Virus genome (UHGV): UHGV-0262291
Length of the DNA: 11,287 bases
Strand: one strand, 5' to 3'
Source of the DNA: a virus
The translations under genes were made by a program, and so were the position numbers. The notes below the pieces were generated by a model. That model saw only the letters and a program-made list of their open reading frames with translations, did not search any database and was not told the DNA's origin. This document shows positions 3,681 through 4,142 of the stretch, piece after piece (positions within the stretch are counted from its first letter, which is position 1; every line of letters starts with the position of its first letter).

Positions 3681-3713
3681 GCCAGAAAAAAACAAAACCC
3701 GCCGAACCGGGTT
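3681..3713 (-). terminator. Rho-independent terminator ending the hok transcript
   Basis: Hairpin AACCCG-(6 nt loop)-CGGGTT (plus 3696..3713), followed on the minus strand by TTGTTTTTTTCTGG (plus 3681..3695). Confidence 0.6.
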
Positions 3714-3781
3714 AAGTGCGGGTGCGTTGAGGATGCCTGACACATCAGAGGTGGCGAGGGATTTCTCCCCCGCCAGGTCTC

Positions 3782-3937
3782 TTACTCCTCAGGTTCGTAA
3801 GCTGTGAAGACAGCGACCTCCGTCTGGCCGGTTCGGAGTCGTACCTCGCAGAGGTCTTTCCTCGTTACCAGTGCCGTCATTATGACGGTTAAACAGATGA
3901 CGATCAGGGTGATTAACATCGCCTTTTGCTGCTTCAT
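3782..3937 (-). CDS. hok: Hok/Gef-family type I toxin (small membrane-depolarising peptide)
   Basis: MKQQKAMLITLIVICLTVIMTALVTRKDLCEVRLRTGQTEVAVFTAYEPEE is a near match to the Hok/HokD (RelF) family as recalled; AAGGAG SD 9 nt upstream of this ATG. The ORF track extends it 19 in-frame codons upstream to an ATG at 3994, which sits at the mok-equivalent position. Confidence 0.85.
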   Translation of the reverse strand: MKQQKAMLITLIVICLTVIMTALVTRKDLCEVRLRTGQTEVAVFTAYEPEE

Positions 3938-4112
3938 AGCCTGCTTCTCCTTGCCTTTCGGCACGTAAGAGGCTAACCTACATTTGTGAGACATAGATTG
4001 GGCCTCAGATTAATGTTAAGCGTCTTGCAGGACGCGTAATGTTAACTGGGGCTTTTCTCTATCTGCCTTTTGGTGTTCATGCCTGAGGCAGATAGCCTCA
4101 AGCACCCGCAGC
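3938..4112 (-). promoter_or_regulatory. hok mRNA 5' leader, including a 5' element (4096..4111) complementary to the transcript 3' end (3717..3733)
   Basis: Plus 4096..4111 CCTCAAGCACCCGCAG is the reverse complement of plus 3717..3733 GTGCGGGTGCGTTGAGG with one bulge, so the two transcript ends can pair, the tac/fbi-style long-range pairing known for hok mRNAs. An additional 9-bp stem with GAAA loop lies at 3753..3774. Confidence 0.5.
3985..4050 (+). ncRNA. Candidate Sok-like antisense RNA (position inferred, boundaries uncertain)
   Basis: Inferred from hok-locus architecture: antisense to the leader around the upstream in-frame ATG. Plus-strand -35 TTGCCT (3951..3956), 17-nt spacer, -10 TAACCT (3974..3979); hairpin GCGTC-(6 nt loop)-GACGC at 4020..4035. 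No clean U-tract terminator was found. Confidence 0.25.
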
Positions 4113-4113
4113 A

Positions 4114-4142
4114 ATTCTACTTAACTCTCGCTTTACCGCAAA
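4114..4142 (-). promoter_or_regulatory. Candidate hok promoter
   Basis: On the minus strand: -10 TAGAAT (plus 4114..4119) with a weak -35 (TTTGCG) 17 nt upstream. The predicted transcript start coincides with the 5' complementary element, giving an mRNA of about 420 nt. Confidence 0.4.

What the first reader, a model, noticed from the sequence alone, without database searches (positions are those of the whole stretch)
3681..4142. Hok-type type I toxin locus with intact 5'-3' mRNA pairing inside the prophage
The Hok peptide is unmistakable. The predicted transcript (about 4110 to 3690, roughly 420 nt) has a 5' end able to pair with its 3' end (4096..4111 vs 3717..3733, 16 of 17 nt), a 3' stem-loop with a GAAA loop, its own terminator, and an in-frame upstream ATG at the mok position. 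This is the full architecture of an activatable hok/sok-type module rather than a decayed remnant, so it may stabilise the prophage or act in abortive infection.
Basis: partly seen in the sequence, partly recalled or inferred. Interest (0 to 1): 0.5.

Follow-up and report, generated by a model that had tools for sequence, protein, structure and literature searches.

The report
Intact hok/sok toxin cassette in prophage
This is a complete, apparently working copy of the well-known hok/mok/sok RNA-controlled killer-peptide module in a lambda-like E. coli prophage; it is 93% identical to the experimentally studied hokW-sokW locus, so the finding is correct but ordinary.

Summary
Window 3690..4150 (minus strand) carries a full hokD/hokW-type cassette. 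Its parts are a weak promoter, a ~418-nt hok mRNA starting at ~4107, a 70-codon in-frame mok, a 51-aa Hok (Pfam HOK_GEF, E 2.5e-22), a GAAA-capped 3' hairpin and an intrinsic terminator. A plus-strand Sok gene (~3986..~4060) has its own promoter.

The 5'-3' pairing is in the minimum-energy fold, with pair probabilities of at least 0.97. It costs 15 kcal/mol to break and covaries across 53 loci from Escherichia to Photorhabdus and Erwinia.

E. coli K-12 hokD shares only 3688..3951; relBE replaces everything upstream there. The window copy is therefore the complete form.

The cassette is 93% identical to hokW-sokW of prophage Sp5, including identical promoters. That locus is a proven type I toxin-antitoxin system, switched on by prophage induction, that doubles phage release. 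RefSeq annotates this locus as hokD, and at least 80% of a 601-nt query spanning it (3600..4200) is present in 2173 of 5426 complete E. coli genomes.

It is therefore already known.

One side observation may be new. The Sok 5' tail / mok start (3981..4005) is a sharp diversity hotspot, with 18 variants among otherwise near-identical cassettes.

The parts
4136..4141 (-). hok promoter -35-like hexamer TTGCGG (16-nt spacer); weak match
   Evidence: Read. Identical in hokW. The consensus scan did not call it, which fits a weak promoter.
4114..4119 (-). hok promoter -10 hexamer TAGAAT
   Evidence: A TAnnnT hexamer lies at a fixed 6-nt distance from the conserved GGG(U/C)GCUU in almost every locus from all genera.
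3690..4107 (-). Full-length hok mRNA (~418 nt)
   Evidence: The Rfam RF01794 match starts at 4107. Terminator. MFE -167.5 kcal/mol, z -7.36. Across 53 loci, 82.9% of cells are paired against 39-46% when partners are slid.
4096..4107 (-). tac: 5'-terminal element GGGUGCUUGAGG, which can pair with fbi, with ucb, or into a local hairpin
   Evidence: pair probabilities at least 0.966 with fbi; tac-ucb helix all canonical; local hairpin after truncation.
4048..4054 (-). ucb: AAGCCCC, the alternative partner of the 5' end after 3' trimming
   Evidence: Rfam consensus helix GGG-GCUU/AAGCCCC. Nearly invariant in A2. The enforced conformer is -140.8 against MFE -141.6 kcal/mol in the truncated RNA.
4003..4006 (-). 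mok Shine-Dalgarno GAGG (within the nearly invariant CUGAGGC)
   Evidence: Paired in the full-length MFE.
3782..3994 (-). mok ORF, 70 codons, in frame with hok and containing it
   Evidence: An upstream ATG at 56-58 nt is present in 51 of 53 loci; it is in frame in 35.
3947..3952 (-). hok Shine-Dalgarno AAGGAG
   Evidence: CAAGGAG nearly invariant. Paired in the full-length MFE.
3782..3937 (-). hok ORF, 51 aa: MKQQKAMLITLIVICLTVIMTALVTRKDLCEVRLRTGQTEVAVFTAYEPEE
   Evidence: Pfam HOK_GEF E 2.5e-22. phrog_251 E 1.7e-32. RefSeq annotation hokD.
3797..3799 (-). Tyr47 codon UAC inside the invariant UUACGAA (TadA-type A-to-I editing context; edited A = 3798)
   Evidence: T309-A314 are invariant in all 53 sequences. 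K-12 hokD mRNA is reported edited at 6% (PMC12214031).
3752..3775 (-). 3' UTR stem-loop, 10 bp, GAAA loop
   Evidence: Helices 18-19 are 79-82% paired with compensatory changes.
3720..3732 (-). fbi: CCUCAA(C)GCACCC, the 3' partner of the 5' end (fold-back inhibition)
   Evidence: Covariation UA:34/CG:14 and GC:30/AU:7. The partner lies at a conserved position 41-50 nt after the stop codon.
3686..3713 (-). Intrinsic terminator of hok mRNA (hairpin 3713..3696 plus U-run)
3951..3956 (+). Sok promoter -35 TTGCCT
   Evidence: TTG(A)CC is conserved in all 53 loci. Identical to hokW.
3974..3979 (+). Sok promoter -10 TAACCT (17-nt spacer)
   Evidence: Identical to wild-type sokW. The published 'pro-less' primer YO-421 mutates exactly this hexamer and abolishes antitoxin activity.
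3986..4062 (+). Predicted Sok antisense RNA (~72-80 nt): single-stranded 5' tail, hairpin 4000..4054, U-rich tail. Ends are approximate, +/-4 nt.
   Evidence: Fold -32.2 to -32.7 kcal/mol, z -4.9 against mononucleotide shuffles. sokW is reported as 71 nt complementary to the hokW leader.
3981..4005 (.). Diversity hotspot: Sok 5' tail, which is also the mok start and first codons
   Evidence: pi 0.28 against 0.063 for the rest of the leader; 0 of 10000 shuffles reach it; 18 variants.

Best explanation
The region is a complete hokD/hokW-type hok-mok-sok type I toxin-antitoxin cassette (about 3690..4150). It sits in the early-right (nin-like) region of a Qin/Rac-like lambdoid prophage of E. coli.

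Mechanism, inferred by homology to plasmid R1 hok/sok and to Sp5 hokW-sokW:
1. A weak constitutive promoter makes a stable ~418-nt hok mRNA.
2. Its 5' end (tac) is locked to a 3' element (fbi). This keeps the mok and hok ribosome-binding sites and the Sok target buried, so the full-length RNA is neither translated nor bound by Sok.
3. Slow 3' exonucleolytic trimming removes fbi. The 5' end then re-pairs locally or with ucb, which exposes the mok translation start and the Sok target.
4. An unstable antisense RNA, Sok (~72-80 nt), is made from a conserved promoter on the plus strand. It pairs with the mok start region, blocks mok translation and with it the coupled hok translation, and the duplex is cleaved by RNase III.
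5. When Sok synthesis stops, Sok decays. The stored processed mRNA is translated, and the 51-aa Hok peptide inserts into the inner membrane and collapses it.

In a prophage the most likely trigger is induction. In the 93%-identical hokW-sokW, Sok disappears after mitomycin C in a RecA-dependent way. HokW appears about 1 h before endolysin, growth arrest comes about 40 min earlier, and phage yield doubles.

Shown here: sequence anatomy, thermodynamics, covariation and homology. Inferred: transcription, processing, toxicity and the biological role.
For: - Hok peptide: Pfam HOK_GEF E 2.5e-22; phrog_251 'MokW-like host killing'.
- Leader: Rfam RF01794, 121.7 bits against a gathering score of 59, full length, on the hok-sense strand.
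- Element-by-element alignment with an R1-type plasmid locus.
- tac-fbi helix in the MFE, z -7.36; pair probabilities at least 0.966; +15 kcal/mol if fbi is unpaired.
- Family-wide support: 82.9% paired against about 42% when slid; 52 pairs with double changes against 24-35; tac-fbi pairs UA34/CG14 and GC30/AU7.
- Refolding after truncation: a local 5' hairpin in the MFE, and the tac-ucb conformer within 0.8 kcal/mol.
- Sok: conserved -35 and -10 in all 53 loci; predicted tail, hairpin and U-tract.
- 93% identity (410/442) to hokW-sokW, with identical promoters, tac and fbi.
- Experimental function of hokW-sokW (PMC8621323), including loss of antitoxin activity when the TAACCT -10 is mutated.
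- K-12 hokD retains only 3688..3951, so the window copy is the untruncated form.
- A hok -10 hexamer at a fixed distance in all lineages.
Against: - No expression data exist for this exact locus.
- The sigma-70 consensus scan called neither promoter, because both fall below its 9-of-12 match threshold (roughly 6-8 of 12 by eye).
- Structurally intact chromosomal hokA/B/C loci were reported not to mediate post-segregational killing or rifampicin activation, so intact architecture does not guarantee activity.
- This Hok allele (T10, M20, L34) is rare; only 2 of 5152 matching records are at least 99% identical over the 601-nt query. It has not been tested for toxicity.
- The window copy sits in a different place in its prophage (the nin-like region, co-oriented with early-right transcription) than hokW (the accessory region near the right end of Sp5). 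Its trigger could therefore differ.
- ViennaRNA puts a local 5' hairpin slightly ahead of tac-ucb in the truncated RNA.
Confidence: 0.85

Rival explanations
1. Prophage addiction (post-segregational killing). The cassette kills cells that lose or excise the prophage, because stable hok mRNA outlives Sok. This stabilises the prophage in the lineage and was the first reader's first suggestion.
For: The architecture matches the plasmid R1 module, whose established role is post-segregational killing. hok genes are enriched four-fold in prophages (23% against 5% expected; preprint).
Against: Intact chromosomal hokA/B/C loci did not give post-segregational killing. Deleting hokW-sokW from Sp5 had no effect on growth under normal conditions, and the measured phenotype was at induction. 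Spontaneous loss of an integrated prophage without induction is rare, so the selective benefit is unclear (inference).
Confidence: 0.2
2. Abortive infection or phage exclusion. Infection by a lytic phage shuts off host transcription, Sok decays, Hok kills the cell early and the burst is reduced.
For: R1 hok/sok on a high-copy plasmid reduced T4 plating efficiency by 42% and plaque size by about 85% (cited in PMC8621323). The cassette is a moron-like insertion with a variable upstream junction; only 10 of 80 loci share the upstream flank.
Against: The reported T4 effect is modest and comes from a high-copy plasmid. The preprint found no enrichment of hok near defence systems. There are no data for hokD/hokW-type loci. 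The slow 3' processing of hok mRNA known from R1 may be too slow relative to a lytic cycle (inference).
Confidence: 0.15
3. Silent passenger. The cassette is structurally intact but not activatable in vivo, like the chromosomal hok loci tested in 1999, and persists only because it hitch-hikes in a mobile prophage module.
For: Chromosomal intact loci failed in the post-segregational killing and rifampicin tests. The hok promoter is a weak match to consensus.
Against: Purifying selection is strong across the whole RNA: pi is 0.013 in the ORF and 0.063 in the leader outside the hotspot, and rises to about 0.3-0.6 just outside the cassette. Caveat: the ORF figure is deflated because the loci were selected for Hok protein identity of at least 94%. 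Compensatory changes maintain the helices. The 93%-identical hokW-sokW is active.
Confidence: 0.1

Closest known systems
hokW-sokW of Sakai prophage 5 (Sp5), E. coli O157:H7 (Takada et al. 2021, PMC8621323)
   Same: 93% nucleotide identity over 442 nt (window 4151..3710). Identical: hok -35/-10, tac, ucb, Sok -35/-10, hok SD and fbi. Both have a 51-aa Hok and a 70-codon in-frame mok, and both reside in a lambdoid prophage. Three published primers or probes match the window perfectly.
   Different: The Hok C-terminus differs (..AVFTAYEPEE here..AVFVDYESEK in HokW, deduced from primer YO-560), and there are three internal substitutions. 8 of the 32 mismatches cluster in the Sok tail / mok start. 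The terminator is different, since homology ends at 3710. The position in the prophage differs: the nin-like region, co-oriented with early-right genes, here; the accessory region near the right end, opposite to the late genes, in Sp5.
hokD (relF) of the Qin cryptic prophage, E. coli K-12
   Same: 97% identity over 3688..3951, covering the hok ORF, SD, 3' UTR with fbi, and terminator. The downstream neighbourhood is the same (the ydfU/DUF968 side). RefSeq names the window gene hokD.
   Different: K-12 lacks everything upstream of 3951: the mok start, Sok target, Sok gene, ucb, tac and hok promoter are all replaced by relBE. An extra ~420 bp carrying rem lies downstream. The window copy is the complete form.
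hok/mok/sok of plasmid R1 (the paradigm type I toxin-antitoxin system)
   Same: Same order and spacing of promoter, tac, ucb, Sok target, mok, hok SD, hok, fbi and terminator. Same long-range 5'-3' pairing logic, supported by covariation. mok is in frame at 57 nt in the R1-type plasmid copy as well.
   Different: About 44% Hok identity (as reported for HokW against R1 Hok). The window's Sok hairpin carries a ~19-nt extension (GCGUC..GACGC) absent from R1 and from the Rfam consensus, and its tac stem-loop is about 16 nt shorter. The replicon is a prophage, not a plasmid. The demonstrated role of R1 hok/sok is plasmid maintenance.
hokC (gef)/mokC/sokC and other chromosomal hok loci
   Same: Same family and same RNA architecture. 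The hokC-type loci (L019-L031) align throughout and share the tac-fbi covariation.
   Different: Different lineage: Hok is 74-76% identical, the Sok -35 is TTGACC, and the Sok hairpin extension is absent. These loci sit at chromosomal, non-prophage positions.

Membership tests
[quoted passage not shown] | Small hydrophobic Hok/Gef-family toxin peptide (~50 aa) | tested here: met
   Pfam PF01848 HOK_GEF E 2.5e-22, covering profile positions 1-42 of 42. phrog_251 E 1.7e-32.
[quoted passage not shown] | Conserved, structured hok mRNA 5' leader (Rfam RF01794 model) | tested here: met
   121.7 bits against a gathering score of 59, model positions 1-157 of 157, E 5.5e-28, on the hok-sense strand 4107..3932.
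[quoted passage not shown] | Long-range pairing of the mRNA 5' end (tac) with a 3' element (fbi) that locks the full-length RNA | tested here: met
   Present in the MFE. Pair probabilities 0.966-1.0; +15 kcal/mol if broken. Conserved position. Compensatory changes at 4 of 12 pairs across 53 loci.
[quoted passage not shown] | Alternative pairing of the 5' end (tac-ucb or a local hairpin) available once fbi is removed | tested here: met
   The Rfam helix GGG-GCUU/AAGCCCC is all canonical in the window. The truncated RNA refolds. The tac-ucb conformer is -140.8 against MFE -141.6 kcal/mol.
[quoted passage not shown] | Upstream overlapping reading frame (mok) whose translation start lies in the Sok target | tested here: met
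   ATG at 3994 with GAGG 8 nt upstream and a 70-codon ORF. An ATG at 56-58 nt is present in 51 of 53 loci.
[quoted passage not shown] | Cis-encoded antisense RNA gene (Sok) with its own promoter and terminator, opposite the mok start | tested here: met
   At the sequence level: -35 TTGCCT, 17 nt, -10 TAACCT, conserved in all 53 loci. Predicted 5' tail, hairpin and U-tract. The -10 is identical to the mutationally validated sokW -10. Transcription itself was not tested.
[quoted passage not shown] | Expression of both RNAs, 3' processing of hok mRNA, Sok instability | not testable with these tools
   Needs northern blots, dRNA-seq or a rifampicin chase. Shown for hokW/sokW RNAs, not for this locus.
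[quoted passage not shown] | Toxicity of the peptide and neutralisation by Sok | not testable with these tools
   HokD and HokW are toxic when induced. This allele (T10/M20/L34) is untested.
hokD/hokW lineage (prophage-borne hok) | Close nucleotide identity to hokD (K-12) and hokW-sokW (Sp5) across the cassette | tested here: met
   97% over 264 nt to K-12 hokD. 93% over 442 nt to hokW-sokW.
hokD/hokW lineage (prophage-borne hok) | Residence in a lambdoid prophage or phage | tested here: met
   The window carries a LexA-family repressor, Cro, YdaT, a replisome organizer, DUF968, RusA and a Q antiterminator. 573 phage-contig stretches encode a relative of this Hok.
Post-segregational killing / addiction module | Killing of cells that lose the element; stabilisation of the replicon | not testable with these tools
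The literature is negative for chromosomal hokA/B/C.

The most novel reading that the evidence does not exclude
The 25-nt segment that is both the Sok 5' recognition tail and the mok start (3981..4005) may be a diversifying specificity determinant. It evolves about 4-5 times faster than the rest of the leader, while the start codon, flanks and hairpin are kept. This creates at least 18 mutually mismatched Sok/target 'immunity types' among otherwise near-identical prophage cassettes. Under this reading, co-resident prophages (E. coli genomes carry a median of 2 and up to 10 hok-like places) cannot silence each other's toxin, and each prophage's switch stays private. This would be analogous to the discrimination known for the multi-copy Sib/Ibs type I systems (my own knowledge, not checked here).
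Probability: 0.3. Interest if true: 0.45.

Novelty: already known. Interest (0 to 1): 0.15.

Why it matters
For the genome scan, this is a correctly recognised but ordinary element. It is annotated as hokD by RefSeq. At least 80% of a 601-nt query spanning it is present in 40% of complete E. coli genomes. It has its own PHROG and Rfam families, and it is 93% identical to an experimentally characterised locus.

Its practical value is as a clean reference example of the untruncated hokD-type cassette, because the textbook K-12 hokD is a relBE-truncated remnant.

If the side observation on the hypervariable Sok tail holds up, it would bear on how several copies of one RNA-controlled toxin module coexist in one cell without cross-silencing. 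It would also bear on what hok is doing in prophages, which the 2026 preprint still lists as open.

Tried and rejected
1. The sigma-70 consensus scan found neither the hok nor the Sok promoter. I did not take this as absence, because the hexamers are conserved at fixed positions family-wide and the Sok -10 is mutationally validated in hokW.

2. Duplex-only folding of the first 18 nt against the 3' UTR gave, for the window itself, a slightly better alternative partner (UGAUGUGUCAGGCAUCCU, -22.2 kcal/mol). I rejected this because the whole-molecule MFE and ensemble use the canonical fbi, and because the canonical partner is the one that covaries.

3. I expected hokW in the nin region of Sp5 and found nothing in 1250000-1272000. 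It lies near the right end, annotated only as 'MokC'.

4. The Rfam 'sok' hit is not evidence for a plus-strand gene. The model matches the hok-sense strand, starts at the hok +1 and ends at the hok AUG. The plus-strand 'sok' hit (19.4 bits, 4048..4180) is sub-threshold and reflects the palindromic tac stem.

5. A hard-constraint run that forbade individual tac-fbi pairs (-137.2 kcal/mol) left the whole 5' end unpaired and probably over-constrains. I rely only on the 'fbi unpaired' figure of +15.0.

6. I recalled from memory that R1 mok is out of frame with hok. The R1-type plasmid copy fetched here is in frame (57 nt), so I dropped that claim. The frame varies in the family.

7. I did not use the protein-homology, structure-prediction or fold-search tools. 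The peptide's family is unambiguous and nothing hinged on them.
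Full report
WHAT IS THERE

The window is the early region of a Qin/Rac-like lambdoid prophage of E. coli. On the minus strand, reading rightward from the immunity region, it carries a Cro/CI-type regulator, YdaT, a replisome organizer, DUF977, several small ORFs and a DUF551 protein. Then comes the finding, followed by a phrog_1212 protein, DUF968/HNH (YdfU-like), RusA and a Q-like antiterminator. A LexA-family repressor and the ydfA/ydfC genes lie on the plus strand. The best whole-window matches are E. coli chromosomes at 98.5-99.9% identity.

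CHECK OF THE OBSERVATION

The 51-aa ORF at 3937..3782 is a Hok/Gef peptide (Pfam E 2.5e-22; phrog_251 'MokW-like host killing', E 1.7e-32). An in-frame ATG at 3994 extends it to 70 codons.

The only Rfam family reaching its gathering score in the whole window is RF01794 'sok' (121.7 bits against 59), which matches 4107..3932 on the minus strand. As its consensus shows, that model runs from the hok mRNA +1 (GGGUGCUUGA) to the hok AUG. It certifies the hok leader, not a plus-strand gene.

A -10 hexamer (TAGAAT here; TATAAT, TATATT or TAGTAT elsewhere) lies exactly 6 nt before the conserved GGG(U/C)GCUU in loci from Escherichia, Shigella, Kluyvera, Photorhabdus, Erwinia and Pantoea.

An intrinsic terminator (3713..3696 plus a T-run) closes a ~418-nt transcript. 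The GAAA-capped 10-bp hairpin is at 3775..3752.

The claimed 5'-3' pairing is real. In DNA terms it is 15 pairs plus one bulged C. Within the RNA it is 12 pairs plus the bulge, GGGUGCUUGAGG (4107..4096) with CCUCAA(C)GCACCC (3732..3720).

IS IT MORE THAN CHANCE?

The full transcript folds to -167.5 kcal/mol, z = -7.36 against dinucleotide shuffles, with the 5'-3' helix in the MFE and centroid. In the Boltzmann ensemble each of the 12 pairs has probability 0.966-1.0. Forcing the 3' element single-stranded costs +15.0 kcal/mol.

I fetched 65 Hok-encoding loci from one-genome-per-species contigs. The first 18 nt find a complementary partner at a conserved place, 41-50 nt past the stop codon, in nearly all of them. 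The compensatory differences are obvious: GGGUGC/GCACCC against GGGCGC/GCGCCC, and GAGG/CCUC against GAGA/UCUC.

I then projected the window's MFE onto a 53-sequence alignment (A2).
- 82.9% of cells are paired, against 39-46% when partners are slid by 1-3 columns.
- 52 pairs show double changes, against 24-35 when slid.
- The covariation score is 0.176, against about 0.07 when slid.
- In the 5'-3' helix, one pair is UA:34/CG:14/UG:3 and another is GC:30/AU:7/GU:3.

Caveat: the structure was derived from one of the aligned sequences, which inflates 'percent paired'. It does not create compensatory changes.

THE REST OF THE MODULE

Aligned with an R1-type plasmid locus whose Hok is 100% R1 Hok, the window matches in order at the 5' end, the AAGCCCC box, the mok SD and ATG, the Sok promoter region, the hok SD, the ORF, the fbi and the terminator.

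After removal of the 3' ~45 nt, the predicted 5' end refolds into a local hairpin. The classical tac-ucb conformer (GGG-GCUU with AAGCCCC, all canonical) is only 0.8 kcal/mol above that MFE.

On the plus strand, TTGCCT (3951..3956), a 17-nt spacer and TAACCT (3974..3979) form a promoter whose two boxes are conserved in all 53 loci. From ~3986 the RNA would have a ~14-nt single-stranded 5' tail, a long hairpin (4000..4054) and a U-rich tail (-32.7 kcal/mol, z -4.9). That is the Sok design. Here the hairpin has a ~19-nt extension that is absent from R1 and from the Rfam consensus.

REMNANT OR COMPLETE?

K-12 hokD is the known remnant. It aligns with the window only over 3688..3951 (97%). Everything upstream, meaning the mok start, the Sok target and gene, ucb, tac and the promoter, is replaced by relBE. 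This agrees with the literature statement that K-12 hok loci other than hokB are inactivated by insertion sequences or rearrangements. The window copy has all the parts.

CLOSEST CHARACTERISED RELATIVE

- HokW is toxic.
- sokW expressed from its own promoter neutralises it.
- Mutating the sokW -10 abolishes protection.
- RNase III and Hfq contribute to the antitoxin activity.
- On mitomycin C or heat induction, sokW RNA disappears and HokW appears in the inner membrane in a RecA-dependent way, about 1 h before endolysin.
- Deleting the locus delays growth arrest by about 40 min and halves phage yield (PMC8621323).

I located hokW in the Sakai genome (L071 33348..33788, annotated only as 'MokC'). 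The window cassette (4151..3710) is 93% identical to it (410/442). Identical elements are the hok promoter, tac, ucb, Sok -35/-10, hok SD and fbi. Three published oligonucleotides match the window perfectly. The 'pro-less' primer differs from the window at exactly the TAACCT -10, at four designed changes.

The biological role best supported by analogy is therefore an induction-triggered helper of lysis. Prophage addiction and abortive infection remain possible but untested. The nearest negative evidence is that intact chromosomal hokA/B/C loci did not give post-segregational killing.

One difference may matter. hokW lies near the right end of Sp5, opposite to late transcription. The window copy lies in the nin-like region and is co-oriented with early-right transcription. 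No terminator was found between the upstream genes and hok. After induction, read-through from the early promoter would therefore run head-on into the Sok promoter. That could be how Sok is lost here, but this is inference only.

HOW COMMON, HOW MOBILE

The 601-nt region matches 4729 of 5426 complete E. coli genomes, and 2173 of them carry at least 80% of it. The median is 2 places per genome and the maximum is 10. RefSeq calls the gene hokD. It also occurs in Stx-converting and other lambdoid phages and in P1-like phage-plasmids.

A 2026 preprint already reports four-fold enrichment of hok in prophages and states that its function there remains to be studied.

Among 80 phage-contig copies, 67 share the window's downstream flank but only 10 share the upstream flank. 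Homology begins at 4119-4150, right at the hok promoter. So this is a habitual slot with a variable upstream junction.

SIDE OBSERVATION: A DIVERSITY HOTSPOT

In 69 distinct hokD/hokW-like cassettes, nucleotide diversity within the transcript is low. It is 0.013 in the ORF, but that value is biased low because loci were chosen by Hok identity. It is 0.063 in the leader.

The exception is one sharp peak at 3981..4005 (0.28, locally 0.35). The next-best 25-nt block in the leader is 0.13. None of 10000 shuffles of per-site values gives such a block.

This is the Sok 5' tail and, on the other strand, the mok start and first codons. There are 18 variants. The flanking CUGAGGC and GUAGGUUAGC are conserved in all but the most divergent variants, and the ATG is kept in all of them. 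Most variants can still form a small hairpin.

Co-resident copies in single genomes carry different variants (L005, L010 and L017 in one E. coli; L006, L008 and L018 in one Shigella). With these variant frequencies, however, that is expected fairly often by chance, so it proves nothing.

Relaxed constraint is the null explanation, since this is a loop with unconstrained Mok N-terminal codons. Diversifying selection for private Sok specificities is the interesting alternative.

The position of the mok ATG also slips among 56, 57 and 58 nt upstream of hok. It is in frame in 35 of 53 loci, in the +1 frame with a long overlap in 10, and forms a 19-codon ORF ending on the hok AUG in 6. This suggests that it is the act of translating mok that matters, not the Mok peptide.

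VERDICT

The functional suggestions are plausible but are not what the nearest experiment shows. The element is already known, so interest is low.

Noticed in passing
window 3981..4005 (both strands): Sharp nucleotide-diversity hotspot at the Sok 5' tail / mok start among otherwise near-identical hokD/hokW-like cassettes. pi is 0.28 against 0.063 for the rest of the leader. There are 18 variants; the ATG and flanks are conserved; 0 of 10000 shuffles reach it. This could be a specificity determinant or simply the least constrained stretch.
   Followed up: partly
window 3992..3994 and alignment A2: The mok start codon sits 56, 57 or 58 nt upstream of the hok ATG in different lineages. It is in frame in 35 of 53 loci, including the window and an R1-type plasmid; in the +1 frame in 10; and forms a 19-codon ORF ending on the hok AUG in 6. 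L010 has a 58-nt spacing but a decayed leader, and 2 loci have no ATG. The Mok peptide sequence is evidently not conserved; only its translation start is.
   Followed up: yes
window 3794..3800 (-), UUACGAA around Tyr47 codon 3799..3797: TTACGAA is invariant at the nucleotide level in all 53 aligned hok loci, including R1-type, wobble positions included. It matches the TadA A-to-I editing context. Tyr-to-Cys recoding at this position is reported for K-12 hokC, hokD and hokE mRNAs (hokD 6%). In the predicted full-length fold it lies in an unpaired stretch, not in an anticodon-like hairpin.
   Followed up: partly
window 4154..4175: Perfect 22-bp palindrome CGATATGGGAATTCCCATATCG (contains an EcoRI site), about 13 bp upstream of the hok -35. 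It is absent from the other loci's upstream regions. No U-run follows on either strand, so it is not an obvious terminator; it could be a protein-binding site or a recombination junction.
   Followed up: no
window 4184..4288 (-): 34-aa hydrophobic ORF (MSDDISLAMEGALAVVAVVGVYCQVVFLMDRLGN) with a strong SD (AAAGGAGGGAATATG), directly upstream of the hok cassette. RefSeq annotates it as a hypothetical protein in related genomes. It has no PHROG hit, and the overlapping 51-aa ORF (4184..4339) has no Pfam hit. Possibly a small membrane protein.
   Followed up: partly
window 3932..4107 (-) against Rfam RF01794: The Rfam family named 'sok antitoxin' matches the hok-sense strand. Its consensus runs from the hok mRNA +1 to the hok AUG, so it models the hok leader. 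A hit to it should not be read as detecting the antisense gene's strand.
   Followed up: yes
window 3686..3713 (-) in the context of 1086..8719: The strong hok terminator lies inside the early-right operon, upstream of DUF968, RusA and the Q antiterminator. Early transcription must read through it to reach Q, as with a nin-region terminator. No terminator was detected between the upstream genes and hok, so early-right read-through would collide with the Sok promoter.
   Followed up: no
window 3561..3740 (+): A 59-aa plus-strand ORF, annotated as 'hypothetical protein' in RefSeq relatives (WP_001112740.1), overlaps the hok terminator and fbi element on the opposite strand. It is probably a spurious call.
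   Followed up: no
L010 (E. coli ECMA0423), L011/L012, L058: Examples of decayed copies for contrast. L010 has a diverged 5' end (GACUGCAUGUGG) that no longer pairs with its intact fbi (z +0.7). L011 and L012 lack the leader, like K-12. L058 has a frameshifted Hok.
   Followed up: partly
L003, L023, L034, L066 (genome contigs): Near-identical E. coli-type hok loci occur on contigs labelled Veillonella parvula MAG, Acinetobacter idrijaensis, Xanthomonas pisi and 'Candidatus Scatousia'. Two are very short (275-431 nt), but L003 is a 22.9-kb contig. These are most likely contamination or mis-binning rather than real host range.
   Followed up: no
window 4404..5273 (-): A single 289-aa ORF with a C-terminal DUF551 domain. 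The 99.9%-identical genome (AST46) annotates it as a short DUF551 CDS plus a separate pseudogene fragment, and the 98.5% relative (O17_K12a) is annotated the same way. This is an annotation inconsistency or a fused gene.
   Followed up: no
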